A DNA stretch of 64,000 nt from a virus: IMG/VR virus record IMGVR_UViG_3300006104_000013, positions 1-64,000 of that record; one strand, given 5' to 3'. The translations under genes and the position numbers were made by a program. The notes below the pieces were generated by a model. It searched no databases and was not told where the DNA came from. It saw only the letters and a list, made by a program, of their open reading frames with translations. Below are positions 9,140 through 52,400 of this stretch, piece by piece (position 1 is the first letter of the stretch; each line of letters starts with the position of its first letter).

Positions 9140-9227
9140 GTTTTAGAGTCTCCGAAATCGCCAGGTTTTTGCCGGGCGGGCTGATTAGGTTCTTGTTAAA
9201 AAATGCTTTGGTTTCTGGTCCCCCGTT

Positions 9228-9569
9228 TTAGTTTTCCGGGGGGTAGTCGCGGTAGAGTCCGGCGAGGGCGGTACGGATCTCGCGCACCCGGTTTTCCCAA
9301 TAGGGAGTCATGCGCTGCCGCAGGAAGGTGCGTTCCAAATTTTCGATGGCGGCATGCTTGGCGTGGTCAGGCACGGACTCGTCGTCGTTGATTTCTTCAA
9401 GGGCGTCGAAGTAATCCCGCTTGATGTGGGCCAAGAGCTTTTTGGCGAAGAATAGATTCTTCTCAAGTTCTTCGGCCAGCCCCGGCAGGTGACGGGGGTA
9501 GCCCATTAGGGCGTCGTATCCGGCGTCGGTTAAGCTCTCGTCTTCGGGGGCAATGTATGCTTTCGTCAT
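9228..9569 (-). CDS. hypothetical protein
   Basis: SD AAGGAG directly after hammerhead HH3. Confidence 0.75.
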   Translation of the reverse strand: MTKAYIAPEDESLTDAGYDALMGYPRHLPGLAEELEKNLFFAKKLLAHIKRDYFDALEEINDDESVPDHAKHAAIENLERTFLRQRMTPYWENRVREIRTALAGLYRDYPPEN

Positions 9570-9583
9570 TTTTGTCTCCTTGT

Positions 9584-9636
9584 GGCACTCGTCAGTATCC
9601 GCCTTACGGATAGACCGGGTTGCCCCGGTTTCGGCC
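9584..9636 (-). ncRNA. hammerhead ribozyme type II (HH3)
   Basis: Minus strand GGCC-GAAAC-CGGG gcaa CCCG-GTC-TATCCG taagg CGGATA-CTGACGA-GtGCC; predicted cut between 9613 and 9612. Confidence 0.9.
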
Positions 9637-9860
9637 TATTTGATGGAATAGCTTACGGTGCCGTCGTCCCATGCCGTGATGCGGGCGTGTTCGCGCTTGG
9701 TCTCGGTGTCCCGATACATCGGGTCCACGTAATCGCCTTCCAGCGGGGCAATCGGCGGGTTTTGATAGCGGCGGAATCCTTGATCCAAGAGGTAGGTTTC
9801 AATCTCGTGGATTTTGGCGTCTTGGGCAGACGTAAGCCCGGTGGTGATGGCTTGCTTCAT
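9636..9860 (-). CDS. hypothetical protein
   Basis: Start MKQAITTG; TAG stop abuts HH3. Confidence 0.7.
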   Translation of the reverse strand: MKQAITTGLTSAQDAKIHEIETYLLDQGFRRYQNPPIAPLEGDYVDPMYRDTETKREHARITAWDDGTVSYSIK

Positions 9861-9864
9861 GGCG

Positions 9865-10140
9865 CTATTCCCCCTTGGCCTTGGCGATGGCGGCGCGGGC
9901 TTGTTCCGCAAACTGTTGGCATAGGATGGCTTCGCCCATCACTGCCCCGTTATTTCCGCTATCGTGTGCCAGCAGAATGCGCTCAAGCGCAGCCAGCAGT
10001 TCCGGCGCGGCAATGATCAGATTGGCGGTTTCCGTGTCGTAAGCGTCTGCAATGTGGTGTCTTGCGGAGTCTTCAATGCGGTAAAGGCGGTTGTTTTCAG
10101 CGTCGATTCCGTCGATAGCTGCCCATGGTGTTGCTGTCAT
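9865..10140 (-). CDS. hypothetical protein (ANLIIAAPELLAAL family)
   Basis: Common phage early motif; SD GAGG after HH2. Confidence 0.75.
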   Translation of the reverse strand: MTATPWAAIDGIDAENNRLYRIEDSARHHIADAYDTETANLIIAAPELLAALERILLAHDSGNNGAVMGEAILCQQFAEQARAAIAKAKGE

Positions 10141-10169
10141 AGTCTTAATCCCTCGTTAGCTTTGCTGAC

Positions 10170-10222
10170 GGCCTCGTCAGTGTGGGCACAACCCACAGAC
10201 CGGACAGAATCCGGTTTCGGCC
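10170..10222 (-). ncRNA. hammerhead ribozyme type II (HH2)
   Basis: Minus strand GGCC-GAAAC-CGGA ttctg TCCG-GTC-TGTGGG ttgtg CCCACA-CTGACGA-GGCC; intact core; predicted cut between 10198 and 10197. Confidence 0.93.
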
Positions 10223-10243
10223 TTTAGTCTTGGTCCCAGAAGC

Positions 10244-11098
10244 CTAAGCAATACTGGATTCGCTTATCAATGTACTTAAGAGCGCCTTCTGGCGTGGTGC
10301 ATTCTTCGTTGTAGCCTTCGTTTGGGTGGAGTCCGGGGAATATGATTGCCCCCTGTCTTTTGTCGCCATGTCGGTGGGGTGATTAACGCCCATGGCAGTA
10401 AAAACTTTTTCGATGTCATAACCGCCCTTATAGACGTGCTTCAGGGACTGGATTACAGCAAAGTAAAGGCGACGAATGAAGGAAGGGTGTGCGATGATAA
10501 AGGCGAGTTTATCAAGGTCTAGGGCCTCCCCAGATTCCTTTGCGACAAGTGAAAAATCAAGTAACCGGCCTGTAATTTCCGACCCACATGCGCAAGAAGA
10601 AACAACAACTTCGGCGCTGTATCCTTCGTCTTCCAGCCGGTCAATGTAGGACAGGATGGAAACCCCCCAATTGGTAATTTCCTGCATGCTGGTCATGGCT
10701 GCGTGTGAGGCTGCCCCGATTTCGATTCGCACAATCTTGTTTGAGGGGCCTTCTTCAAGGTCACGGTAGACCATGCAAAGCGGATCGCCAGCAACAGCGG
10801 CAGGGATGCAGGGAAACGCCCCGGCGACGTCCAGCACGTTGACCGGGTGCAGGACTGTCTTGGTTAGGGCGAATGCGTCGTTTAGGCGCTCCACAATCAT
10901 GTGACGGCCTTCTGCCCAGCCAGTGCGGGCTACTGATATTGCTTCGCTTAGGGAGTCGGTCCCCCGAAACTCCCTATTGCCACGTTCAACAGAAGACGAT
11001 CTTTGCCACACTGGTGGGTGAGCTTCGATATAGGTCAGCATTTCATCAAGGCTAACAAAACCCATATCAATTCTAGTCGGGCCATATGTCAGTTTCAT
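10244..11098 (-). CDS. VWA-like partner of the AAA+ ATPase (DUF7192-like), with a probable frameshift near its 3' end
   Basis: DVAGAFP.IPA...GDP.CM, IDRLE..GY, LD.DKLAF...HPS..RR motifs; directly downstream of the AAA gene. Confidence 0.75.
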   Translation of the reverse strand: MKLTYGPTRIDMGFVSLDEMLTYIEAHPPVWQRSSSVERGNREFRGTDSLSEAISVARTGWAEGRHMIVERLNDAFALTKTVLHPVNVLDVAGAFPCIPAAVAGDPLCMVYRDLEEGPSNKIVRIEIGAASHAAMTSMQEITNWGVSILSYIDRLEDEGYSAEVVVSSCACGSEITGRLLDFSLVAKESGEALDLDKLAFIIAHPSFIRRLYFAVIQSLKHVYKGGYDIEKVFTAMGVNHPTDMATKDRGQSYSPDSTQTKATTKNAPRQKALLSTLISESSIA

Positions 11099-11102
11099 GG
11101 TT

Positions 11103-12584
11103 TTACTTCCCCATCTTGGCAGGCAGACGAACCGACATGGCGGATTCGATCTTGGCGCGCTGGTCGGCCTTGACGCCTTGCCACAAGCAGCGGTTTGCGA
11201 CGTCGCGCGGGTCTTCACCACGACGCAAGGCTTTTGCCCCTTTGAACGATGATCGGGGCGAGATGATGGACCGCACGTCTAATTCAGTGGCGGCGCGGCG
11301 GGCGTCCCGAACATAGGCAACCCATTGATCATGCCCGGCCAAGTCTTCAATGCGATGATCGTAGGCCATGGCGAATGTATAGAAGCGGTTCAGAGTCGCC
11401 CCATCCAGTTGATTGCGTCCCACATAGATGCGGTCAGCGCCCAACCCGTAGGTATTGGCTGCGGCCATGATGTGAAAATCAGGGTGGCGCTCAATCATGC
11501 CGTCTGGAAAGTCCATGTTCCCGTTTTCAATGGCGGCGTTCAGAACCAAGAGGACTCCGGGATGTGAAGCATCAACTTCGTCCAGCAGGAAGAGTCCACC
11601 GTTCTGATAGGCGTCCCGGAAGCGAGTCCGAACATAGCGCCCTTGGGCGTCCATATAGCCGGTCAGCTTGTAGGGCGAGTCAACGGCACCGGCCATAGCG
11701 AAGCCCAAGCCCAAGGCGTTGGCGACTTGTTCCGCAAGGGTGGTTTTTCCAGAGCCAGCCGGGCCTACCAACATGACGTTTTCCCCATCAGCCACGGCTT
11801 GCAGCACTTCGGTGAAGATTGGGTGATAGACGGCATCCGGCAGAGTCCGCGACTCTGTTTGGGTTTGGATGGTCAGCACAACGGAGTCGCGCTTGATGTT
11901 CTTGAGCCCTGCGTCAATCAGGTTTGCGACGTCTTCCAGAGTCGCGGCGTGTTGCTTGACCAAGCGCACAACGGTGGCCTCGTCAATTTCGACCTTGGGC
12001 GTCAATGTCTGCATCAGCAGTTGCAGAGCGGCGAGTTGGTCAGTGGTGGCAGCGGCTGTCATTGTCGTCTCGGTTTCCTTTTGCTTGAGGATGGATTTAT
12101 AGTATTCGGCGGAATCTTCGTCGGCTTCGACTTCGACCCATCCAGCGTCTGGTTCGTTGTCGTCAGGGTGGACAGGCACGTATCCTCGTCCGGTAATCTC
12201 GTAGTACACGGCCTGCTCGTCGTCTTCGGCCATAGCGGCAGTCAGCGCCTGGTATTTGGCTTGATGTGCGGCAAGGGCAGCGGCTTCGTCGAAGATCGGC
12301 GTGGGTGTCAGCAAATCGGGCTTGGTGGCGGTGATGTGCGGGCCAGTCCCGGCAATGTCGTTGTGCAAGTGCACGTCGGTGGTGTCGTTGTAGTATTTCA
12401 ACATCTGGCCGCACGTCGCGCGATTGACGAAGAGTCCGGGATCGGTCAAGCCAAGCTCCACCACATGGGCGCGAAGCCAATTGCGCACTTGCCCCCGATT
12501 GTCGGTATCCACCTTGGGCAGAGTCCCGCGATACCAACCAATCTGTTGGGTCAGCTCTCCGGCAGAGTGTTTAGGCTTTGCCAT
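11103..12584 (-). CDS. MoxR/CbbQ/CobS-type AAA+ ATPase
   Basis: Walker A GPAGSGKT, Walker B LLDEVD, AANT.G.G...YVGRNQLD.ATL.RF. Confidence 0.92.
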   Translation of the reverse strand: MAKPKHSAGELTQQIGWYRGTLPKVDTDNRGQVRNWLRAHVVELGLTDPGLFVNRATCGQMLKYYNDTTDVHLHNDIAGTGPHITATKPDLLTPTPIFDEAAALAAHQAKYQALTAAMAEDDEQAVYYEITGRGYVPVHPDDNEPDAGWVEVEADEDSAEYYKSILKQKETETTMTAAATTDQLAALQLLMQTLTPKVEIDEATVVRLVKQHAATLEDVANLIDAGLKNIKRDSVVLTIQTQTESRTLPDAVYHPIFTEVLQAVADGENVMLVGPAGSGKTTLAEQVANALGLGFAMAGAVDSPYKLTGYMDAQGRYVRTRFRDAYQNGGLFLLDEVDASHPGVLLVLNAAIENGNMDFPDGMIERHPDFHIMAAANTYGLGADRIYVGRNQLDGATLNRFYTFAMAYDHRIEDLAGHDQWVAYVRDARRAATELDVRSIISPRSSFKGAKALRRGEDPRDVANRCLWQGVKADQRAKIESAMSVRLPAKMGK

Positions 12585-12586
12585 GG

Positions 12587-12823
12587 TTAGACTCCTACGC
12601 TGGTTTCGGCCAAGGCCCAGCCCTTGGGCGCAAGGTTAATGATGTGGCTTAGACTGGGCTTGCCATCCAAGTACGTTTCAAAGCCCATGCGGCGAGCGCA
12701 TTCAAGCTGGTGCTCGTTCAGGGTTTTGACGCCAATGGCGTCGGCATAAGCCTGCGACTTGACGCAAGCCGGGTAAATCTTGGTCTGTCCGTAGACGCTC
12801 TTGGCGGTGAATTGCATAATCAT
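12587..12823 (-). CDS. hypothetical protein
   Basis: KSVYG...IYP.C..S......G.KTL pattern; SD AGGAG. Confidence 0.75.
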   Translation of the reverse strand: MIMQFTAKSVYGQTKIYPACVKSQAYADAIGVKTLNEHQLECARRMGFETYLDGKPSLSHIINLAPKGWALAETSVGV

Positions 12824-12827
12824 GGCG

Positions 12828-13028
12828 TTAGACTCCTTTGGCTTTGGCGACGGCGGCACCAATCTCTTCCAGCATAGTCGCGTGGTGGGTGGGAACAAAA
12901 TCCAGCGCCGACTCTAACGTCGTCAACATCATGTCAAAGGCTTCGGCGGCTTCGTAGAGTCGCATTTGGGTATCCACATTGCGCTCCAATTGGGCGCGGT
13001 CTCGGATGATTTGCGCGTAATCAATCAT
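12828..13028 (-). CDS. hypothetical protein
   Basis: SD AAGGA after HH1; ends AAVAKAKG. Confidence 0.7.
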   Translation of the reverse strand: MIDYAQIIRDRAQLERNVDTQMRLYEAAEAFDMMLTTLESALDFVPTHHATMLEEIGAAVAKAKGV

Positions 13029-13055
13029 GGTCTTCATTCCTTGGGTAGTTCTGAC

Positions 13056-13108
13056 GGCCATCGTCAGGTGACGCCACACGTCACGACCCGGCGAACCGGG
13101 TTTCGGCC
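13056..13108 (-). ncRNA. hammerhead ribozyme type II (HH1)
   Basis: Minus strand GGCC-GAAAC-CCGG ttcg CCGG-GTC-GTGACG tgtgg CGTCAC-CTGACGA-t-GGCC; predicted cut between 13085 and 13084. Confidence 0.9.
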
Positions 13109-13242
13109 TAGCGGTTTCTGATCTGCTCCAAGGCCAGCGCATAGCGGACAGCCGTAGCGCGGTGGGTGAAAGCGAAGGGGCGGCGACTCGCTTCGGGAAC
13201 GTTCCAGCCCTTTTTGGTGAATTTTACAGTGCAGGTGTTCAT
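13108..13242 (-). CDS. 44-aa early protein
   Basis: SD AAGGAG; TAG stop abuts HH1. Confidence 0.65.
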   Translation of the reverse strand: MNTCTVKFTKKGWNVPEASRRPFAFTHRATAVRYALALEQIRNR

Positions 13243-13255
13243 GATCTCGACTCCT

Positions 13256-13414
13256 TCAGACCGGCAGGCCAGCGGCATGGTTAGCGGTGACAACATCCAC
13301 CATACGATAGACACAGCGATGGAAGCTGGACACGCCATGGCGATAGTCTTTAGTAAACCGGAAGCCTGTGACCTTCATGGCCGGAACAAGCAGGTAAGCG
13401 ATGAATGTGCGCAT
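13256..13414 (-). CDS. first early gene, 52 aa (MRTFIAYLLV...; not in ORF track)
   Basis: SD GAGGAGG, open frame read by hand to TGA at 13258-13256. Confidence 0.7.
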   Translation of the reverse strand: MRTFIAYLLVPAMKVTGFRFTKDYRHGVSSFHRCVYRMVDVVTANHAAGLPV

Positions 13415-19235: not shown

Positions 19236-21420
19236 TCTGACGAAGTGTCAACCTGATCAGCTTAATGATTTGCTCAACAAAAAGCTGGCAGAAATGTCGC
19301 TGTCTGAGTTTCTTAAGCAATCATGGCGCTACTTCGACCCAGGGAACTATTCCCATAACTGGCATATCGATGCGATTTCAGAACATCTGATGGCCGTCAA
19401 TGTCGGGCAGATACGGAATCTGATTATCAATATCCCGCCGCGCCACATGAAGTCGTTGTCAGTTGCTGTCGCTTGGCCAGCCTGGACGTGGGCGCAACAG
19501 AGAGACCCTGACTTTCCTTTGCTCGGACCAGCCGTCCGATGGATGTTTGCATCCTATGCGCAGAGTCTGTCGCACCGCGACTCTCTGAAGATGCGCCGAC
19601 TGATCGAATCAGGGTGGTATCAGAAGAACTGGGGGGATCATGCGAAGATCACCGGAGACCTTGATCGTAAAGAGCGCTACGAAACGACCGTCGGAGGGTA
19701 TCGCCTAGCAACATCCGTCGGCGGTGCGCTGACTGGTGAAGGCGGTGATATCATTGTCTGCTTCCCACCATGGGAGGTCGTCTGGACAGACATTGGGCCG
19801 ATGCAATTTATGGACGTCGTAAAGCGGAGATACCAGGGGAAGGTCTGGTCGTATTCTGCAAAGAACGGGATGGAGCTCTGCCAAATTATTGGATGGCATA
19901 CCAACCCATCGCGTCCGCTTGTCGTTGTTGAGTTTGAAAATTGCCCGCCACTTGTCTGCACCGAGGATCACCGTATTCTTACGGAAGAGGGGATGCTGGT
20001 GGCTGTGGGGCGGCTGAAGCCAGGAACTTTGATTCTTGACCCCCTGCTCAAGCGGGAAGGGTTGAAAGGCTCCAAGATCTTTAAAGGTCTTCGGCCATGG
20101 GATCACCCGCCGAAGCCGACGTACTGCATAACCGTCGAGAAGAACCATAATATGCTGGTGGGGCGATCGCTATTGATCGCTGCCAACTGTGACGACCCAT
20201 TGAATGCTAACGACGCCAATTCTGACGTTCTGCGCCAAGGGGTTCTGACGTGGTGGGATGAGTCCATGCAATCACGTTTGAACGATCCGAAGACCGGGGC
20301 GAAGGTCATCATTATGCAACGACTGCATGAAGACGATCTGACTGGCCACATCCTCCAGAATGACCGCAATGGGGAATGGTGTCACCTGATGCTTCCGGCC
20401 GAATATGATTCGTCTCGGCACTGTTTCACATCGATCGGATGGGAAGACCCTCGGACTGAAGACGGGGAAGCCCTGTGGGAAGAGAGAGTCGGGACAAAAG
20501 AACTGAATACCCTCAAGGCCGCCATGGGTCCATACGCGTTTGCTGGGCAATATCAGCAGAGTCCGCAGCCGCGTGGTGGTGGGATTATCAAACGCGAGTG
20601 GTGGAACCCATGGCCAGGAGAGGATGAATTGCGCGAGGGTGTGAACACATCGTTCCCGCCATTTGAATATGTCGTCGCCTCGCTCGATACTGCTTTCACC
20701 GAAGACGAGGAAAACGATTACTCAGCTCTGACCATCTGGGGCGTCTTCCGCGATATGGGGTCAAAGTTTGTCGCTCCCCGCCTTGTCACCGATGTGAATG
20801 ATCGTGGCGAAACGATATTGATGCCGCAGGAAGAGCAGCCAAAGGTGATGCTGGTCTATGGTTGGCAAAAGCGCCTGACCCTGCACGGCCCACCGGAAAA
20901 AAAGCCGGATGGGGTCAGCCAGGAAGAATGGGATTCTCCAGCTTGGAGAGGATATCGCCGGGAGAACTGGGGGCTGGTGGAGTGGACGATTGATTCGTGT
21001 CGCCGGTACAAGGTCGATCGCCTGCTGATCGAAGGAAAGGCTTCCGGTTTGAGCGTTGTTCAAGAACTGCGCCGCCTCTATGCCAATGAGCGGTTCTCGC
21101 TGGAAATCACCAACCCAGGCAGAATGAGCAAGGTTGCCCGCGCCTATGCCGTTGAGCCACTGTTTGCCAATGGTCAGGTCTATGCTCCCTATCTGATGCT
21201 GAAGAATGGCGTCATCTGTTCGCGGTCGTGGTGCGATCAGATCATTACCCAGTTCACACAGTTCCCCAAAGCAACACATGACGACCTTGTGGACTCCAGC
21301 CTGCATGCGCTTCAGCACTTGCGTGATATAGGCATGGCGCTTCGCAAGGAAGAGGTGGAGGCAGAGTGGGACGACTCTTTATTGATTCGAGCGAGCGAAA
21401 GGCCACTTTACGATGTCTGA
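19225..21420 (+). CDS. terL: terminase large subunit with intein
   Basis: INIPPRHMKS Walker A, Walker B split by intein (IIV|CDDP), IMQRLHEDDL, YQQ.P, SLDTA and HDDLVDS nuclease motifs. Confidence 0.96.
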   Translation: MAFDLTKCQPDQLNDLLNKKLAEMSLSEFLKQSWRYFDPGNYSHNWHIDAISEHLMAVNVGQIRNLIINIPPRHMKSLSVAVAWPAWTWAQQRDPDFPLLGPAVRWMFASYAQSLSHRDSLKMRRLIESGWYQKNWGDHAKITGDLDRKERYETTVGGYRLATSVGGALTGEGGDIIVCFPPWEVVWTDIGPMQFMDVVKRRYQGKVWSYSAKNGMELCQIIGWHTNPSRPLVVVEFENCPPLVCTEDHRILTEEGMLVAVGRLKPGTLILDPLLKREGLKGSKIFKGLRPWDHPPKPTYCITVEKNHNMLVGRSLLIAANCDDPLNANDANSDVLRQGVLTWWDESMQSRLNDPKTGAKVIIMQRLHEDDLTGHILQNDRNGEWCHLMLPAEYDSSRHCFTSIGWEDPRTEDGEALWEERVGTKELNTLKAAMGPYAFAGQYQQSPQPRGGGIIKREWWNPWPGEDELREGVNTSFPPFEYVVASLDTAFTEDEENDYSALTIWGVFRDMGSKFVAPRLVTDVNDRGETILMPQEEQPKVMLVYGWQKRLTLHGPPEKKPDGVSQEEWDSPAWRGYRRENWGLVEWTIDSCRRYKVDRLLIEGKASGLSVVQELRRLYANERFSLEITNPGRMSKVARAYAVEPLFANGQVYAPYLMLKNGVICSRSWCDQIITQFTQFPKATHDDLVDSSLHALQHLRDIGMALRKEEVEAEWDDSLLIRASERPLYDV
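19759..20187 (+). mobile_element. mini-intein (143 aa, no homing endonuclease)
   Basis: Starts CFPP, block B CTEDHRI, block F TYCITV, ends AAN before +1 Cys. Confidence 0.92.
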
Positions 21421-24656: not shown

Positions 24657-24734
24657 TGGTCAGGGTGAGTGGATTTGAACCACCGGCCTCTGCATTCCGA
24701 GTGCAGCGCTCTACGCAAACTGAGCTACACCCTG
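24657..24734 (-). tRNA. tRNA-Pro(CGG)
   Basis: CAGGGTG acceptor, CTGCA-CT-CGG-AA-TGCAG anticodon arm, GGTTCAAATCC T arm, encoded CCA. Confidence 0.92.
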
Positions 24735-44405: not shown

Positions 44406-47400
44406 ATGGGAAAAGGCGGCGGCAGCGGTGGCGGCACAAACACGGTATCTCAATCGGCTCCGCCGACAGCGGTCCTTAACGCATACCAATCGATTAATAA
44501 TCAGGCCCAGGCCCAAGCGTCTGCTCCGCTGAATCAGTATGCCGGAGCGACGATCGCCGGGTTCACCCCGCAGCAAATGCAGGGGTATCAGACCACACAG
44601 CAAGATCAGGGCGTCCAAAACCCCTATATCAACGCGGCTGCCCAGCTTTATGGCGACGTCGGCAACCAGATCAATGTACCCCAGTTCAGTGGGTATCAGG
44701 TCGGCCAGTATATGAGTCCGTACACCCAGAGCGTGGTGAATGCGACCGGTCAGCAGTTCGCAAATCAGAACGCCCAGCAAGATCAACAATTGCTCGGAAG
44801 CACGATTCAGCAAGGAGCCTTTGGTGGGGACCGCGAAGCGATCGCTCGGGCGGCACTGGCCGGACAGCAGCAGGTATCGCAGGCCCCGACGATTGCCGGA
44901 CTCTACAATACCGGCTATGGCCAAGCCCTGAACGAGTTCAATAACCAGCAGAACGTCAACGTCAACGCCCAGACGACGGGTGATTGGCTGGCGTCGAACG
45001 CCGCCGCCGGACTCTCTGGGCTTGGCAGCGCCGCCGCGAATGGGCTCTCCACTCAGGCCGGAGCCCAGACTGCGGCCGGGGCACAGCAGCAGCAACTGAG
45101 CCAGGAACAACTCAACGTCCCATATCAGAACTTCGAGCAGGCCCAGGCATTCCCCTATCAACAGATCGGCTGGAATTCCAACATCGCCGAGTCGATGGGG
45201 GCTGGATCTGGCGGGACATCGACGACGTCGCAGCCGGGAGCATCTCTTGGTGCGACGATCGGCGCGTCAGCGATCGGTCTAGGCGGCATTGCCGGAGCCA
45301 CTGGCGGCTTTGGTAACGGTGGCTGGCTCTATGATAACGGATCGAGTGCTGGCGGGCTATTGAATAGCGCAGGATCATCGATCGGCCAGGGATTGAGCAA
45401 TATCGGCCTTGCAAAAGGTGGCGGGATTAAAGAATACCATGGGTTTGGCGGGATGGCGGCGAGCGGCATCCCTGGCACCGGAAACGGCGACACGTCTGGA
45501 TTCCTGGCTGATGGTGGTCGAGTCGGGCTGGCTGGTGGCGGCACAATGATGGCTGGCATGACCGGGCTCGGCAATATGAAGCAATACGGGACAAGCATGT
45601 CCACGAGTACCGGTCCTGGTCCAAGTGCAGGAGTCCAGCTCCAAAAGGCTGCCGGTGATATCGGGTCCATTAGAAATGCGTATGGTTTGGCCAATTCAAT
45701 CTATCAAGGGGCAATCTCGAACCAGCTCGGACTTGACGCTGCCGGGAACGCCGTCGGTGCTGGATCTGCATGGACTGGAAGCACTGCTGGTTTGGGTGGG
45801 GCCAATATCGGCGAAGGCGTTGGACAGCTATCATCTGGGTTCACCAACATTGGTAGCTTCGGCGGGTCAGCGAGTGGCGTTGGAACCGCTGCCGAAGCGG
45901 CTGGAACTGCCGCAGAAACAGCCGGGACTGCGGCTGAAGCCGGAACAGCAGCGTCATCCATGGCTGGTGGTGCTGGAACTGTAAGCGAAGGGTTGGGTGA
46001 GTTCATCCCCCTTATTTTTGCGAAGGATGGCGGCCGGATTGGGCTGGCTGGTGGTGGATTGCCGACAACGCAGGGAACGACCGAGGACGGAGTGCCACAA
46101 GGTGGAACGGATGCAATCTCGCCGTTCATTCCGAACAACAGCAACCCGTTCACCATCGTTGGGAAAAGCGCCTATGCCCCCCACGTCGGTGGCCACGGGG
46201 TCGGGATTCCTGCCCCACCGGCACCTACGCATCAAGACCCCATCAAGCAGGCAGTTGAAATGGCCAGCTCACTTGGGAAGGCGATCGGAAGCCAGAAAAA
46301 TACTGGCGACGGCAAGCCGACTCCGGGAACACCGTGGAGCGGCAGCACAGCGAGTCTGACTGGGCAAAACACTGGCGATGGTGTCGCCCCTGGGTATGGC
46401 TCTCCCATGGGGGCACCGGGGCAGTCTCAGTTTACGAGCCCGGATCAACCGGCCCAGGGAGTTTCCCAAAATGCAGCCCCGGCGAACATGTCCAATGGAT
46501 TTACGGGGCCGAGCACTCTCCCCGCCATTCCTGGCGTGAGCCAGACCTATAAAGAAGGCGGCCGGGTCGGACTCGCCAATGGCGGAAGCAACGCAGGCGT
46601 CAGCCAGGGGTGGAATGCCGGACAGGCACAAGGCGTTCAGACGCATGCTCCAGTGCAGCAGCAATATAGCGGATACCATCCCAGCATGGGATTCGGCGGT
46701 TGGGGAATGCCGCAATCTCAGCGGGGATACCAAATGCCGCAAGGCTATATGGGGTATCAAGCCCCAGCAGTTGGCGCGTCACCGTGGCTCTCTGGCTCTC
46801 TGGTGAACCAACGCGGAATCGCCATTCCGCAGCTTGAGACTGGTGGATATGGACCTCAAGGGCAGAACCTGTATGGGTATGCGGCTCCGTCTAGGGCGAA
46901 TTTGAATTCGTCTATGATGCAGAATTATGCAGCACCGAACACGGGAACTCTTCCGTATTACTCGACATCGTATGGTGTGCTGACCCCAGCATCGATCCAC
47001 AATGGCGTTAGCCAGTACGCCTACAGCGCCCCGACAACAACATTGGTTGGCAAAGGGCAAAATGCCATTCCGCAACAGCCGATGAATGCAACGCCTTTTG
47101 GTGCTCCTGATGGGTCTACTGTCGGTCAGATTTCGCAGGCTGATATTTTTCGCGCCGAATTGAATGGAACAAGCGGTAACGCGAACCCGCTCGTCTATCA
47201 AAACGGAAATCCGATTGGTTGGCTCAACGGATCGAATTACCAGAAGGGCAACCCTGGGCTTCAGGCGGACACGTCGCAATCCTCGTCTCCTGGCGGAAAG
47301 CTTTCTACCGGAGGCGCTGTTACGCCCTATGAGAAAATCCGTAAGAACCGTGATACCGGAGGCTCGACCAATGCCGAACCGACTCCAGAACAACAGGTAA

Positions 47401-49439
47401 CGGCAGGTCTTCAGAATGCCGGAGTCAAAGACGGCGACTCTCCGATGGTCCAAAATTACATGGACCAGTATAAGCAGATGCCGCTGAACCAGCTTTTGCA
47501 GATGGCCCAGCGCGTTCCCGCCGGGTCGGCGCAAGGGGCAATGATCCAGCAAGCTATTCTGATGCAGAAAATGAGGCCACAGCAGGCCCCGCAACCAGTT
47601 CAGCCCGGCCTTGCCGCAGCCATGGGGCCGCAAGCGCAGCAGCTCCGCACTGGTGGCCGCGCTGGATTCGCTCCGGGTGGACTGACAAAGCTTCCGTCGA
47701 GTGACGCCGTAGCTGATCTTGGAACTTTGCCGACGAGCGATCTGGTCGCTAATGGGCAACAGGATCAGACTGTTCAACCGTCGCCGCAGCCATTTGTGCC
47801 AGCAACCGCCGATATGGCCGCCGGGTTATCCCGTCCGACTGTTGATTCCACAGAAAAAGCCGCCAAAGCCGCTCTTGTTGACCCTCGTGTCAACAAGGAA
47901 AAGGCTATTGCAACTGGAATTGCCCTAGGTTCTGCGAAGGAAGCTCAAGCTGAACAAGACGCCAAAGCGCCCTTGACGCCGAAGCCGTCAGCCCCGGTAA
48001 ATCCAAATCAAACGGTATGGGATGCTCTCGGCCTTCCGAAGATCGGGACTGACGAACCGGAGAGCACTGCGAGCAAGGCGATGGCTAATCCCCCTGTGCA
48101 GCCGCCATCCCCTCCTGCTAAATCTGGTCTTGGAGCGCCGCAGCAAACGTCGGCGGAATATGACCCCATGGCTGAAGACCGGGCGCGCGGGGTATATAAG
48201 ATGCAAGATCCGGCCATCGATCGTATTGGGCATTTCCTGAAGGATTCATTGGGGCGCATTTATGGCGTTCCTGGTGCATCACCAGAATCTTCACCGACTC
48301 CGAGCCAGAAGGCATTGGCGCAAACAGCCCCAGTGCCTGCATCGACTGCTCCTGCGCCTAAAGCAGATTCACAACCGGCCCCAGCACCTCAACCTGGGCT
48401 CGGCCAAAAGGTTGACCCGACTCATTTGACGTTGGCGAATGGCCCAGCTTCGGCTACGGCCAAGAAAGATGTCTCTGGACTTAAGAAAGCTTCGCCGCAA
48501 GAAGTGGCAAAAGTGAACGCTGTCGATGCCGACAAGGTAAAGGTGGAGTCATCTCCGACCACATCGACGTCAACGCCGCCGCCGATCCATCCGCTTGACT
48601 ATACACCCGACAACCACACCGTTAACGCTAAGGACATGTACGACAAGTATGGATCAAACGATCCTTTGTGGAGCGGGTTGCTGTCAGCCGCCGCCGCGAT
48701 GGCCAACACCCATGGCGGAAGCCTACCTGCTGCAATTGGCCAGGGGGCTGTCTCCGGACTGGGTGCGTACAATAACCAGATGGCGGCCTATGCCCAGCAG
48801 GCCAAGGATGCGAACGACGCGACGGATAAGAAGAACCAAACCGCGTTGCGCGTGGCTGAAGCCAACCAAAAAACAGATATCGATAATACGACCGCAGCCC
48901 AACAGCAGCAGCGGATCGATATCGAAAAGGCAACACAAATCGAAACGGCGAAGAAGAACGCCGCCGAAATGAACAAACCTCAGATCGTCAATGTTGGGCA
49001 AGGTCTCGCCTTGGTAGTTCATCCAGATGGAACGTCTCAGACAGTGCGAGCTCAAGGATACGATACCAGCTTGGATAAAAGTGGAGGCAAAGATGCAACA
49101 ACAGCCCTGATTACGACGGCGAACTACCTGAAGGCAGCCGATCAGAACTCAGGAAAGCCAATGAAATCAGACGATGAATATCTCCAGAGAGCCGCCATTC
49201 TCCAAGGGCATAAGCAGCCAGCTCCAGGCATGACGCTTGCTCAGGCGAACACGGCCGCTCAGAAGGAAATTGATTCCGGTCTCGCGGTTAGCCCCGATGG
49301 AAAAGCTTTAAAAGGAGCTGATAGACTCGCGTGGAAAAAGAACAGAGTCGCTGAATTGACCGCATCGTCCTCGCCAGTTTCAACTCCGTCTGGTACAAAC
49401 CAACCGACAAAGACCATCAGCTTCAGCGATTGGAAATAG
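44406..49439 (+). CDS. DNA ejection / internal virion protein
   Basis: MGKGGGSGG start, YMSPY...V, GAFGG.R, QQ.L...Y.NF....FP; Gln/Gly-rich. Confidence 0.8.
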   Translation: MGKGGGSGGGTNTVSQSAPPTAVLNAYQSINNQAQAQASAPLNQYAGATIAGFTPQQMQGYQTTQQDQGVQNPYINAAAQLYGDVGNQINVPQFSGYQVGQYMSPYTQSVVNATGQQFANQNAQQDQQLLGSTIQQGAFGGDREAIARAALAGQQQVSQAPTIAGLYNTGYGQALNEFNNQQNVNVNAQTTGDWLASNAAAGLSGLGSAAANGLSTQAGAQTAAGAQQQQLSQEQLNVPYQNFEQAQAFPYQQIGWNSNIAESMGAGSGGTSTTSQPGASLGATIGASAIGLGGIAGATGGFGNGGWLYDNGSSAGGLLNSAGSSIGQGLSNIGLAKGGGIKEYHGFGGMAASGIPGTGNGDTSGFLADGGRVGLAGGGTMMAGMTGLGNMKQYGTSMSTSTGPGPSAGVQLQKAAGDIGSIRNAYGLANSIYQGAISNQLGLDAAGNAVGAGSAWTGSTAGLGGANIGEGVGQLSSGFTNIGSFGGSASGVGTAAEAAGTAAETAGTAAEAGTAASSMAGGAGTVSEGLGEFIPLIFAKDGGRIGLAGGGLPTTQGTTEDGVPQGGTDAISPFIPNNSNPFTIVGKSAYAPHVGGHGVGIPAPPAPTHQDPIKQAVEMASSLGKAIGSQKNTGDGKPTPGTPWSGSTASLTGQNTGDGVAPGYGSPMGAPGQSQFTSPDQPAQGVSQNAAPANMSNGFTGPSTLPAIPGVSQTYKEGGRVGLANGGSNAGVSQGWNAGQAQGVQTHAPVQQQYSGYHPSMGFGGWGMPQSQRGYQMPQGYMGYQAPAVGASPWLSGSLVNQRGIAIPQLETGGYGPQGQNLYGYAAPSRANLNSSMMQNYAAPNTGTLPYYSTSYGVLTPASIHNGVSQYAYSAPTTTLVGKGQNAIPQQPMNATPFGAPDGSTVGQISQADIFRAELNGTSGNANPLVYQNGNPIGWLNGSNYQKGNPGLQADTSQSSSPGGKLSTGGAVTPYEKIRKNRDTGGSTNAEPTPEQQVTAGLQNAGVKDGDSPMVQNYMDQYKQMPLNQLLQMAQRVPAGSAQGAMIQQAILMQKMRPQQAPQPVQPGLAAAMGPQAQQLRTGGRAGFAPGGLTKLPSSDAVADLGTLPTSDLVANGQQDQTVQPSPQPFVPATADMAAGLSRPTVDSTEKAAKAALVDPRVNKEKAIATGIALGSAKEAQAEQDAKAPLTPKPSAPVNPNQTVWDALGLPKIGTDEPESTASKAMANPPVQPPSPPAKSGLGAPQQTSAEYDPMAEDRARGVYKMQDPAIDRIGHFLKDSLGRIYGVPGASPESSPTPSQKALAQTAPVPASTAPAPKADSQPAPAPQPGLGQKVDPTHLTLANGPASATAKKDVSGLKKASPQEVAKVNAVDADKVKVESSPTTSTSTPPPIHPLDYTPDNHTVNAKDMYDKYGSNDPLWSGLLSAAAAMANTHGGSLPAAIGQGAVSGLGAYNNQMAAYAQQAKDANDATDKKNQTALRVAEANQKTDIDNTTAAQQQQRIDIEKATQIETAKKNAAEMNKPQIVNVGQGLALVVHPDGTSQTVRAQGYDTSLDKSGGKDATTALITTANYLKAADQNSGKPMKSDDEYLQRAAILQGHKQPAPGMTLAQANTAAQKEIDSGLAVSPDGKALKGADRLAWKKNRVAELTASSSPVSTPSGTNQPTKTISFSDWK

Positions 49440-49441
49440 AC

Positions 49442-52400
49442 ATGGATGTCACAATGCCGGACGGTACTGTTGTTAACAACGTGCCTGATGATATGAGTAA
49501 ATCCGACTTTGTCGCTAAAGCTAAAGCAAATGGGGCATGGAATCCTTCCTGGGATGCCCCGCAGAAATCGCAGAATCCAGGCAGTGATGATCAGCCGGGA
49601 ATCCTCGAATCTGGCCTCAAAGGATTTGCCAAGGGCGTTATCGGATCGGCCAAGAGTCTGAAGACGACGGCTGTCGGTGACGCCCTGCATCCTGAGAATG
49701 ACGCCCCAGAGGGTGAGCCGGACTCTGTCGATAAGTTGATGGCCGATCCTAACTGGTGGCACCATGGCGCTGGCTGGGCGGCAAAGATCGGCGCTGGCCT
49801 CGGCGGCGTTGCTCCCGGCATGGGTGCAGCAGCACTTGCCTCCGCCCCGTTCGGCGGACCAGAAGACCCTCTCGGCGCGGCCGCTGGTACGGCGGCATGG
49901 GCCGGTGTTTCGGCTATGCAGGAATTGCCTGAAGCGTATCGGAGGAACCTCAAGAACGGGGATGACGCTGAAACGGCCTATAACAAGGCATGGAAGGACT
50001 CTGGGATCGCTGCGGCCACGGGCGCACTGATGAATATCGTTCCTGGCATGAAGGCATTTAAAGGCGCGGCAGATGCGACCGGAAAAATCTCTGCCGACGA
50101 AGCGGCAAAAGCCTATCTGAAAAATCTGGTGTTCCATACCTTTGGAACCGGCCCGGCCATGGGCGCGGCCCAAGACATTGCCCAAAGCGAGGTCGATACC
50201 GGAAAGGCCCCCGATGCCCAGGATCTGGCGCTGAATGCTGCTGTCATGGGTCTTACCGGCGGCGTTCAGGCGGCCATTCATCATGGTGTCGCCAAGGTGT
50301 TGCCTCAAAAAGCGGCAACAGAAGGGACCCCCAACAAGGAAGTCCCGCCACCTGCCACGACCGGTCACTATGTTGAACCGACTGTCACCGGTGGATTCCA
50401 GGTTTTTGGTCCGGACCAGCAGCCGGTTGCAAATGGATTGCACAAAACTGAAGACCTTGCAGCAGCCCATGCGAACAGCCTGAACGCGGCCGCCACAGAA
50501 CCGGCCAATACACCAGTCGATCAAGCGGCAGCAGTCCAGCGGCAGGGGGATCAACAGCTCGAAGGGGCTTTGGCGCAAGAGACGGGGGACGAGCTTCCTC
50601 CCGACGTGCCGCCTGCCGTCCCAAATGGGCCGTCCCTTTCCGGTCTGAACAAGCCGAAAGAACCAACCGCAACAGGTGGTGACGAACAACAAACCGTCAG
50701 CGAGCCCAATGCGACTCTCTTGCACCAGCAAAAGCAGTTGCAGGACGGACTCCGCCCAGCCCAGTATTTCCCGAACGAAACGACTCCTCTACCTCTTCCA
50801 GATGGCATGCAGGAAGTAAAGACGGATCGCGGTGTATTCCATATCAACCCGAAGCTGACATCAGAGGAAGAAGTCCATCAGAAAGCGGCGGAAGGTCGAA
50901 TCGGTGATCTGCTGAACCTCGGTCCCTACAATAAAGATGACATCAACAATCGTGTTGCCACCGGTGAGCAGCCGGTAGCCGTGACCGAACGTACGCCGGA
51001 TGGGACCGAAGTCCGTGCCGCGCATGGAACGGGTCAGACGGCAGCCGAGCAGGCAGCTTATTTTGAACAGACCAAAACCCCTGGAAACACGATTGCCGTA
51101 GAACATCCGCTTGAAACGGTTGCGAAGCGCATCGAAAACGCCCAGGCAGCCCCCCCTGCCGAAAGCGAGTCGCCTCAGACCCCCGCCGCCCCCTCGGTGG
51201 AGTCTGGGGCGACGCCCCCCATTGACGAAAAGACTCCGGGAACGCGCAAAAACCCGATCGACGTCAAGACGGCAGAAGATCTTCGCGCCGCAGAGGAAAA
51301 CATTGATCACGAGCCGACTCCGGCTCAGAAAACGGCGTCGAATTACGAGCACGGCCATATCCGCCTGCATGGACTCGATATTGGCCTAGAAAATGGTAAG
51401 GGCAGCAAGCGCACTGGCATCGGCGAAGATGGCCGCAAATGGACGGCGGCAATGAAGGCGGCCTATGGCTACGTCAAAGGGACCATCGGCAAGGACAAGG
51501 ACCATGTGGATGCTTTTATCGGCGACCATGTGGAGTCCGACAAGGCGTTCATCATCGATCAAAAGAACTTGGCCACCGGTGAATTCGACGAGCACAAGGT
51601 CGTCCTTGGCGCACGGGATGAAGCGGAGGCCCACAAAATCTATGATGGGAGCTTTTCGGACGAGGAAGGTCCAGCCCGGCGCATGGCCACGACCGAAGTT
51701 CCCATCCATGATCTGAAAGAGTGGCTGGCCAATAAGTCGAAAACTCAGGAAGAAGCCGCTCCGCACTTCGCAGAAAAGGCCGAGATCGAGGCCGCAAAGG
51801 AAAAACTGAAGGCGGCGATATCTCGACATCCGGCTTCGACGATCTTTAAAATTAAGGATGCGATCGCCGCTACAGGTCTCGATTCGGCGACAGCTCGATC
51901 CTTGCTGAAAGAGGTCGCCGAAGAGGCAGGACTGGAGAATAAAAGCGGGTCTTTCTTCACGTCAAAAGCCGGGGAAAAGTTGTCCGCCTTTTCCGCTGTT
52001 CCGAACCCACCGCGTCGTCTCAGCACTTGGATCAAATCCAAAGGCGGCATCAAAAATGAGGGGGAAGAGCTGACGAATGCCATTAGGCAGCGCCCAGGAC
52101 TTGTGAACAACAAGACTGGAATGACGCACGAAGATGCTGCTTTGGCGGCATGGCAGGCAGGATATTTCCCCGAACACGGCAGCCCCAAGGAAGACGGGAC
52201 TCCTCCAGATATTTCCGCCTTTCTCAAGCGCCTCGATGAAGACATCAGGGGAAATAAGCAGTTTTCCGAGCATGACACGGAAGAGCTTGAAGCGTTTAAC
52301 GATGCAATCTCCCGCAACGAGGAAATCTCAAAGCTTGCCGACGAGCATGATATTCCAACTAGCGGGTTAACACAGGCGGAGTTTTATGATAAGCTCCGTG

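What the first reader, a model, noticed from the sequence alone, without database searches (positions are those of the whole stretch)
9584..13108. Three type II hammerhead ribozymes punctuate the early polycistronic transcript at gene boundaries
Seen: on the minus (coding) strand, three elements (13056-13108, 10170-10222, 9584-9636) each have the full hammerhead core in type II order: stem II-GAAAC-stem III-GUC-stem I-CUGACGA-stem II. Stem I and III sequences differ between copies but all pair, so structure is conserved rather than sequence. HH1 and HH3 start within the upstream TAG stop. HH2 starts 1 nt after a TAA that ends the frameshift-corrected VWA gene. Each ends 15-30 nt before the next start codon. 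Known: hammerheads self-cleave after GUC, leaving 5'-OH and 2',3'-cyclic phosphate ends; they have been reported near phage genes with unclear roles; T7 uses host RNase III to cut its early mRNA. Inference: this phage processes its own early mRNA without host nucleases, and the 5'-OH hairpin-capped fragments could resist 5'-monophosphate-dependent decay and set gene-specific expression levels.
Basis: partly seen in the sequence, partly recalled or inferred. Interest (0 to 1): 0.92.

Follow-up and report, generated by a model that had tools for sequence, protein, structure and literature searches.

The report
Three hammerhead ribozymes between phage genes
Three small self-cutting RNA motifs (type II hammerhead ribozymes) really do sit in the gaps between genes of an uncultured freshwater phage and most likely chop a long message into shorter ones. 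Such ribozyme clusters between phage genes have been known since 2011, so this is a clean but ordinary example.

Summary
On the minus strand, 13108-13056, 10222-10170 and 9636-9584 each carry the full hammerhead core in type II order, with paired stems I, II and III. The predicted cleavage sites (new 5' ends at 13084, 10197 and 9612) are correct. The core pattern hits 3 times against 0.21 expected. A covariance model built only from 65 compact type II hammerheads of other viral contigs scores the three at 59-64 bits; the next hit in the window scores 15.5. It found none in the rest of the 99.5-kb phage record and none in about 1 Mb around the terminase genes of 80 distant relatives. Rfam's own model falls short (26.6 bits against a cut-off of 37) because it describes a longer, pseudoknotted class.

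The arrangement is typical. Of 264 viral type II hammerheads sampled, 78% lie between a same-strand stop and the next start, and a third of loci hold two to ten. Perreault et al. 2011 described and tested such triple clusters and proposed polycistronic processing, and this scan has noted the kind many times.

One less familiar detail is a tail, GUCAG, after HH1 and HH2 that pairs with the core CUGAC. This competing hairpin recurs and covaries across the compact class. Cleavage, "early" timing and stability effects remain untested.

The parts
13056..13108 (-). HH1, type II hammerhead. Stem II is GGCC/GGCC with an extra U between A9 and G10.1; stem III is 6 bp with a UUCG loop; stem I is a 17-nt hairpin; the core is CUGACGA at 13067-13061. 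Cleavage falls between 13085 and 13084.
   Evidence: Class model R1 scores it 63.8 bits, E about 1e-15. Rfam RF02276 gives 26.6 bits, below its cut-off of 37.
13051..13067 (-). Alternative hairpin of HH1. Core CUGACG (13067-13062) pairs with tail CGUCAG (13056-13051). It is mutually exclusive with stem II and the active core.
   Evidence: It is the minimum-free-energy fold: -27.7 against -25.5 kcal/mol for the hammerhead-compatible fold.
10170..10222 (-). HH2, type II hammerhead. Stem II is GGCC/GGCC (4 bp); stem III is 6-7 bp; stem I is a 17-nt hairpin; the core is CUGACGA at 10180-10174. Cleavage falls between 10198 and 10197.
   Evidence: R1 scores it 58.9 bits. Rfam does not report it even at E<=10.
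10165..10180 (-). Alternative hairpin of HH2. CUGACG (10180-10175) pairs with CGUCAG (10170-10165).
   Evidence: -27.3 against -25.3 kcal/mol..
9584..9636 (-). HH3, type II hammerhead. Stem II is GGCC/GUGCC with a bulged U; stem III is 6 bp with a GCAA loop; the stem I loop UAAGG matches the class consensus; the core is CUGACGA at 9595-9589. Cleavage falls between 9613 and 9612. There is no alternative hairpin.
   Evidence: R1 scores it 64.2 bits.
13108..13338 (-). 76-aa ORF whose TAG stop overlaps the first base of HH1.
   Evidence: GC3 is 0.70. No family match.
10244..13028 (-). Block between HH1 and HH2: a 66-aa ORF (13028-12828), a 103-aa ORF (12898-12587), a CobS-like AAA+ ATPase (12584-11103) and a DUF7192 protein (11098-10244, possibly read on to 10224 after a -1 shift).
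   Evidence: phrog_249 at 2.4e-53, phrog_1909 at 2e-36, PF07728 and PF23822. Frames are and the homolog alignment is A1.
9636..10140 (-). Block between HH2 and HH3: a 91-aa phrog_1273 protein (10140-9865) and a 74-aa ORF (9860-9636, whose TAG overlaps HH3).
9228..9569 (-). 113-aa ORF that starts 14 nt after HH3, preceded by AAGGAG.

Best explanation
The three elements are genuine type II hammerhead self-cleaving ribozymes. They belong to a compact class with a 17-nt stem I hairpin, a 4-bp open stem II and no pseudoknot, which is abundant in uncultured phages. They sit in three intergenic spacers of a co-oriented minus-strand gene block of a roughly 100-kb freshwater tailed phage.

When the block is transcribed, each ribozyme folds and cuts after C17 (3' products start at 13084, 10197 and 9612). 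This releases a roughly 2.9-kb message (two small ORFs, a CobS-like ATPase and DUF7192), a 586-nt two-gene message, and the downstream message.

Because the topology is type II, every upstream piece keeps its stop codon. It ends in the stem III hairpin with a 2',3'-cyclic phosphate. Every downstream piece begins, with a 5'-OH, directly in the stem I hairpin, ahead of an unstructured ribosome-binding site.

In HH1 and HH2 the tail GUCAG then pairs with the core CUGAC(G). This replaces the 4-bp stem II, lets the products part, blocks religation and adds a second 5' hairpin. Before cleavage the same pairing probably lowers the active fraction and so tunes the cutting rate.

What is shown: the motifs, their statistics, their class membership and their gene context. 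What is inferred: cleavage in vivo, a single transcript, and the effects on stability and expression.
For: - Core and stems: the core and all three stems are present in each copy, with 3 pattern hits against 0.21 expected.
- Independent model: R1, built without the window's copies, scores them 64.2, 63.8 and 58.9 bits, against 15.5 for the next hit in 64 kb. It gives nothing in the other 35 kb of the genome and nothing in 985,579 bases of terminase-related phage loci.
- Class covariation: in A2, stem II was not imposed by my scanner and is 85% paired, with GC, AU and CG exchanges.
- Context is class-typical: of 264 viral type II hammerheads, 86% have a same-strand ORF stop within 40 nt upstream (the mode is a stop overlapping stem II, as in HH1 and HH3). 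91% have an ORF start downstream (median 28 nt). Both hold for 78%, against 11% on the opposite strand.
- Published tests: triple prophage clusters cleave in vitro and in E. coli (PMC3088659), and three D. vulgaris type II hammerheads cleave in vivo (PMC8782182).
- Alternative hairpin: it is the minimum-free-energy fold of HH1 and HH2, about 2 kcal/mol better. N'UCAG lies within 12 nt of the core in 45 of 302 hammerheads, against 3 of 302 in control windows. 43 of 45 are compatible with N7; C7 goes with G in 31 cases and A in 0, while U7 goes with A in 6 and G in 6 (Fisher p = 1.5e-4). These span 42 distinct stem I sequences in 39 contigs.
- Engineered analogue: RiboJ, a hammerhead plus a hairpin, raises transcript abundance about twofold (PMC6206723).
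Against: - No cleavage assay or RNA data exist for this phage.
- Rfam's RF02276 does not reach its cut-off for any copy.
- HH1 has an extra U between A9 and G10.1, and HH3 has a bulged U in stem II.
- HH1 and HH2 depart from the class-conserved A at loop I position 3, having U and G.
- Their competing hairpin is predicted to be more stable than the active fold, so they may cut slowly.
- Perreault et al. found 4 of 18 consensus-conforming candidates inactive in vitro.
- A single polycistronic transcript is inferred only from orientation and tight spacing. The strand of coding between 13.4 and 15.7 kb is unclear.
- The hammerheads are not conserved in the nearest detectable relatives, so no syntenic support exists.
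Confidence: 0.78

Rival explanations
1. Regulated switch. In HH1 and HH2 the tail-core hairpin holds the ribozyme off. Cleavage happens mainly when something sequesters the tail, for example a 30S subunit bound at the ribosome-binding site 10-20 nt downstream. Cutting is then coupled to translation of the downstream gene.
For: The alternative hairpin is about 2 kcal/mol more stable than the active fold. It emerges only 5 nt after stem II, it covaries with N7, and the ribosome-binding sites lie just beyond the tail.
Against: There is no evidence for any coupling. HH3 and 58% of the compact class lack the tail, so it is not essential to the class. Helices this short interconvert quickly, so simple rate tuning and product trapping explain the same data.
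Confidence: 0.12
2. Hammerhead-shaped but catalytically weak or dead copies. They act, if at all, only as intergenic hairpins that stabilise mRNA ends or serve as targets for host RNases.
For: Rfam scores are below threshold. HH1 carries a U insertion, HH3 has a bulged stem II, and HH1 and HH2 have non-consensus loop I. A competing fold exists. 4 of 18 consensus candidates were inactive in PMC3088659.
Against: All strictly conserved core positions are intact in all three copies. The U insertion is shared by 17 of 66 class members, which argues that it is tolerated. Scores under the class model are high. Dead copies would not be expected to keep a perfect core three times over.
Confidence: 0.08
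3. Cassette scars. The hammerheads travel with mobile gene cassettes and mark their borders. Any RNA processing is incidental to the phage.
For: The genes flanked by hammerheads are not constant (PMC3088659). A distant CobS-like homolog locus has no hammerhead. Eighty terminase relatives have none within 10 kb, so the distribution is patchy.
Against: The strict same-strand placement between stop and start (78% against 11%) and the overlap with stop codons point to function at the RNA level. No repeats or recombinase genes are tied to the three sites.
Confidence: 0.05

Closest known systems
Clustered type II hammerhead ribozymes flanking genes in prophages (Perreault et al. 2011, PMC3088659), including the Agrobacterium tumefaciens, Azorhizobium caulinodans and Clostridium scindens triple arrangements
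   Same: Several hammerheads lie within a few kb on the coding strand, in the gaps between genes of phage origin. The proposed role is the same, cutting a long phage transcript into gene- or operon-length mRNAs. The gene content is variable.
   Different: This is an uncultured freshwater virulent-looking phage record rather than a prophage. The copies belong to the compact class without a pseudoknot. Two copies carry a core-masking tail. Nothing has been tested experimentally here.
Rfam RF02276 Hammerhead_II
   Same: The core, the helix order and the open stem II match. HH1 aligns end to end with the model.
   Different: The Rfam consensus has a longer stem I and a loop I-to-3'-tail pseudoknot. 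None of the three copies reaches the gathering score. In 18 loci Rfam finds 1 hammerhead where the class model finds 35.
Desulfovibrio vulgaris type II hammerheads shown active by cyPhyRNA-seq (PMC8782182)
   Same: They are type II hammerheads beside phage-like genes, two of them close together. They give small 5' and 3' fragments with 2',3'-cyclic phosphate and 5'-OH ends.
   Different: Those are chromosomal copies with in vivo proof of cleavage. No RNA data exist for this phage.
RiboJ synthetic insulator (sTRSV hammerhead plus a 23-nt hairpin; PMC6206723)
   Same: It works like this. Self-cleavage removes the upstream RNA and leaves a hairpin-led 5' end ahead of an exposed ribosome-binding site, and transcript and protein levels rise.
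   Different: It is an engineered type III-derived part, not a relative. In the phage the extra hairpin is built from the catalytic core itself.

Membership tests
Hammerhead ribozyme, type II | Conserved core C3 U4 G5 A6 N7 G8 A9 between stems I and II | tested here: met
   CUGACGA is present in all three copies, at 13067-13061, 10180-10174 and 9595-9589.
Hammerhead ribozyme, type II | G12 A13 A14 between stems II and III, an A15.1-U16.1 closing pair, and a cleavage triplet NUH | tested here: met
   All three copies read GAAAC...GGUC, with C17 at 13085, 10198 and 9613.
Hammerhead ribozyme, type II | Three helices around the core, with stems I and III closed by loops and stem II open (the type II permutation) | tested here: met
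   Stem III is 6-7 bp, stem I is 6-7 bp, and stem II is 4 bp formed by the two ends. Stem I differs between copies at every pair and still pairs.
Hammerhead ribozyme, type II | G10.1-C11.1 pair directly after A9 | tested here: inconclusive
   HH2 is canonical. HH3 has G10.1-C11.1 followed by a bulged U. HH1 has an extra U between A9 and G10.1, a variant shared by 17 of 66 class members.
Hammerhead ribozyme, type II | [quoted passage not shown] | tested here: not met
   No loop I-to-flank Watson-Crick covariation is seen in the compact class. The class instead conserves an A before stem II and U1, A3 and G5 of loop I. HH3 fits this; HH1 and HH2 differ at position 3. Perreault et al. note that many hammerheads lack the pseudoknot.
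Hammerhead ribozyme, type II | Score at or above the Rfam RF02276 gathering threshold (37 bits) | tested here: not met
   HH1 scores 26.6 bits. HH2 and HH3 are not listed at E<=10. The class-specific model R1 gives 58.9-64.2 bits.
Hammerhead ribozyme, type II | Mg2+-dependent site-specific self-cleavage giving 2',3'-cyclic phosphate and 5'-OH ends | not testable with these tools
   No RNA run holds this sequence. A bench assay is needed.
Clustered phage/prophage hammerheads (Perreault 2011) | Two or more hammerheads within a few kb, on the strand of the flanking genes, in intergenic spacers of phage genes | tested here: met
   Three copies lie in 3.5 kb, all on the minus strand and all between a stop and the next start. 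The record encodes terminase, portal and virion proteins. The same pattern holds in 78% of 264 viral hammerheads.

The most novel reading that the evidence does not exclude
The compact, pseudoknot-free class of phage type II hammerheads has a built-in conformational switch. A tail N'UCAG placed right after stem II pairs with the catalytic CUGAN and covaries with N7. After (or in competition with) cleavage, the ribozyme core refolds into a second 5' hairpin. This releases the upstream product, prevents religation, caps the downstream mRNA and sets the cutting rate. It would be a natural counterpart of the engineered RiboJ design. HH1 and HH2 would be examples, and HH3 a tail-less control in the same transcript.
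Probability: 0.4. Interest if true: 0.55.

Novelty: new member of a known kind. Interest (0 to 1): 0.3.

Why it matters
The biological role of the hundreds of bacterial and phage hammerheads is still largely open (PMC6765202), and this locus adds no new principle. It does offer a tidy test case: three ribozymes on one presumed transcript, two with a core-masking tail and one without. Each is placed so that the upstream product keeps its stop codon and a 3' hairpin, and the downstream product starts in a 5' hairpin.

There is also a practical point. Rfam's gathering threshold misses this compact class almost entirely (1 of about 35 copies in 18 loci), so phage annotations under-report these ribozymes.

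Tried and rejected
- RNA evidence: no RNA holder is listed for 9200-13400.
- Strain variation: contigs of four other freshwater DNA runs laid on the region are identical wherever they cover it, so there was no natural variation to test covariation or the frameshift.
- Close relatives: none in the phage collection by blastn. The CobS-like protein gave one locus at 39% identity, with no hammerhead. DUF7192 homologs are at most 43% identical.
- Eighty terminase relatives (27-60% identity, flanks of +/-10 kb) hold no compact hammerhead. Synteny therefore could not be tested.
- The genome search with RF02276 on the window's own record returned only a 16.8-bit chance hit at 20805-20844 and missed all three copies.
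- The fourth GGCCGAAAC, at 12611-12603, has no core downstream and lies at a gene end. It is not a hammerhead.
- The 15.5-bit R1 hit at 11998-11966 lacks stems I and III.
- A loop I-to-tail pseudoknot was looked for by mutual information and not found.
- The frameshift in the DUF7192 gene is left open. The alternative frame carries a TPE-A motif like the homologs, but only at E 0.29, and two homologs also align in the uninterrupted frame.
- Promoter and terminator scans were at chance level.
Full report
**What is there.** The window is the first 64 kb of a 99,552-base IMG/VR virus record, estimated 87% complete. Near-identical DNA occurs only in freshwater metagenomes. The record encodes a large terminase, a portal and virion proteins on the plus strand from about 18.3 kb. 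A block of mostly small, tightly packed minus-strand genes runs from about 18.2 kb down to the window start.

**The three elements.** On the minus strand, the flagged elements read as follows:
- the stem II 3' strand GGCC;
- GAA;
- a 6-7 bp stem III closed by A15.1-U16.1, with loops UUCG, UCU and GCAA;
- C17 of a GUC triplet;
- a 17-nt stem I hairpin;
- CUGACGA;
- the stem II 5' strand.

This is the type II permutation, in which stem II is open. Stem I is different at every pair in the three copies and always pairs.

**Is it more than chance?** The bare core pattern occurs 3 times against 0.21 expected. My scanner, which also demands both hairpins, finds only these three in the whole 99.5-kb record.

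Rfam at gathering thresholds reports no ribozyme. With relaxed thresholds only HH1 appears, at 26.6 bits against a cut-off of 37. The reason is that RF02276 models a longer stem I and a loop I-to-tail pseudoknot.

I collected type II hammerheads from IMG/VR with three pattern scans. This gave 302 unique parsed copies. Stem I hairpins fall into two size classes, 17 nt (78 copies) and 21-24 nt. The window's three copies are all exactly 17 nt.

I built a covariance model, R1, from 65 compact copies of other contigs, with the window's copies left out (A2). Its results were:
- HH3 scores 64.2 bits, HH1 63.8 and HH2 58.9, with E around 1e-15.
- The next window hit scores 15.5 bits.
- Nothing is found in the remaining 35 kb of the genome.
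- Nothing is found in 985,579 bases around the terminase genes of 80 distant relatives.

In A2, stem II was not imposed by my scanner. It is 85% paired, with GC, AU and CG exchanges. The 100% pairing of stems I and III there is by construction. In 18 loci Rfam finds one hammerhead where R1 finds 35, many of them seeds. A negative Rfam result is therefore not evidence against these elements.

**Gene context.** Each hammerhead sits between two co-oriented ORFs.

| Copy | Upstream stop | Next start |
|---|---|---|
| HH1 | TAG 13110-13108, overlapping the first base of stem II | ATG 13028, 27 nt after stem II, preceded by AAGGA |
| HH2 | see below | ATG 10140, 29 nt on |
| HH3 | TAG 9638-9636, overlapping the first base of stem II | ATG 9569, 14 nt on, preceded by AAGGAG |

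HH2 follows the DUF7192 gene. Its uninterrupted frame stops at TAG 10246-10244, 21 nt before HH2. Homologs give only weak support for that shift. The DNA there is identical in contigs of two other runs that span that site.

Between HH1 and HH2 lie two small ORFs, a CobS-like AAA+ ATPase and the DUF7192 protein. Between HH2 and HH3 lie two small ORFs.

This placement is the rule, not an exception. Among 264 viral type II hammerheads with enough flank:
- 86% have a same-strand ORF of at least 50 codons ending within 40 nt upstream. The commonest geometry is a stop overlapping stem II, as in HH1 and HH3.
- 91% have an ORF starting downstream, at a median of 28 nt.
- Both hold for 78%, against 11% on the opposite strand.

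Of 173 loci, 55 hold two or more copies and 28 hold three or more, with a maximum of ten.

**What is already known.** Perreault et al. 2011 (PMC3088659) reported that multiple hammerheads often flank single genes or short blocks in prophages. They proposed that long phage transcripts are cut into operon- or gene-length mRNAs. They also showed cleavage of three triple arrangements in vitro, and of one in E. coli.

[quoted passage not shown] Three D. vulgaris type II hammerheads were shown active in vivo (PMC8782182). This scan has itself logged the kind many times, with 258 notes.

**How it most likely works.** This paragraph is inference. Type II topology gives each product one terminal hairpin:
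- The upstream RNA keeps its stop codon. It ends in stem III plus one nucleotide, with a 2',3'-cyclic phosphate.
- The downstream RNA begins with a 5'-OH at the first base of stem I, ahead of an unstructured ribosome-binding site.

From established knowledge of 5'-end-dependent RNase E decay and 3' exonucleases, both ends should be protective. The engineered RiboJ part behaves this way (PMC6206723).

**The competing hairpin.** In HH1 and HH2 the bases after stem II read GUCAG, so CUGACG of the core can pair with CGUCAG. This 6-bp hairpin is the predicted minimum-energy fold. It is about 2 kcal/mol better than the hammerhead-compatible fold, and it cannot coexist with stem II or the active core. 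HH3 lacks it.

Across the sample:
- N'UCAG lies within 12 nt of the core in 45 of 302 copies, against 3 of 302 in two control windows.
- It is present in 42% of the compact class and 5% of the rest.
- It occurs in three different registers.
- 43 of 45 are compatible with N7. C7 goes with G 31 times and A 0 times. U7 goes with A 6 times and G 6 times. Fisher p = 1.5e-4.
- The copies span 42 distinct stem I sequences in 39 contigs.

Shared ancestry inflates such counts, so this evidence is suggestive rather than proof. My reading is that the tail traps the cleaved state (product release, no religation, a second 5' hairpin) and, before cleavage, lowers the active fraction. A translation-coupled switch is a rival reading. 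Two earlier notes of this scan mention a competing helix or self-masking tail on other phage hammerheads. I found no mention of it in the papers read.

**Caveats on activity.**
- HH1 has an extra U between A9 and G10.1. This variant is shared by 17 of 66 class members, so it is probably tolerated.
- HH3 has a bulged U in stem II.
- The compact class conserves an A before stem II and U1, A3 and G5 of loop I, with no pseudoknot covariation. HH3 fits this, but HH1 and HH2 have U and G at loop position 3.
- Perreault et al. found 4 of 18 consensus candidates inactive.

**Verdict.** The processing role is plausible and already published. The 'early' timing and the stability effects are unproven. 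This is a new member of a known kind. The core-masking tail is a modestly interesting, testable detail.

Noticed in passing
window 10224-10345 (-): The C-terminus of the DUF7192 gene is ambiguous. The open frame ends at TAG 10246-10244. After a -1 shift at a CCCCGG run near 10342-10329, the other frame carries a TPE-A motif like the homologs and ends at TAA 10226-10224, right against HH2. The DNA is identical in contigs of two other runs that span it, so a random assembly error is unlikely.
   Followed up: partly
loci L018, L022, L043, L050, L053 and others: Rfam 15 at gathering thresholds detects 1 hammerhead in 18 viral loci (111 kb), whereas a class-specific model finds 35. The compact 17-nt stem I, pseudoknot-free type II class falls below the RF02276 cut-off.
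   Followed up: partly
L091 (10 copies); L009, L081, L092, L127, L134, L171, L271, L333 (6 each): These are arrays of six to ten canonical type II hammerheads within loci of at most 15 kb from uncultured phages, far denser than the three seen here.
   Followed up: no
alignment A2, the column before stem II and the loop I columns: The compact class conserves an A immediately 5' of stem II (65 of 66), U1, A3 and G5 of the 5-nt loop I, and A or G immediately 3' of stem II. This may be a loop-receptor contact replacing the pseudoknot. The conserved A-G at the 5' edge explains why TAG, TAA and TGA stops so often merge with the ribozyme.
   Followed up: partly
window 24657-24734 (-): A tRNA-Pro (CGG) gene lies on the minus strand inside the plus-strand packaging and structural module. 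A second tRNA lies in the rest of the record (L354 10735-10805).
   Followed up: no
window 44406-49439 and 49430-60661 (+): Two very large adjacent ORFs of 1677 and 3743 aa lie in the structural region. They were not examined.
   Followed up: no
window 12603-12611 (-): A fourth exact GGCCGAAAC sits at the end of the 103-aa ORF, just before the CobS-like gene start. It has no CUGANGA core downstream and is not a hammerhead. It could be chance or a decayed copy.
   Followed up: partly
window 11103-12584 (-): The CobS-like AAA+ ATPase (phrog_249, PF07728) has an N-terminal stretch of about 160 aa with no family match. Together with the DUF7192 protein it forms a pair like phage CobS/CobT modules.
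   Followed up: no
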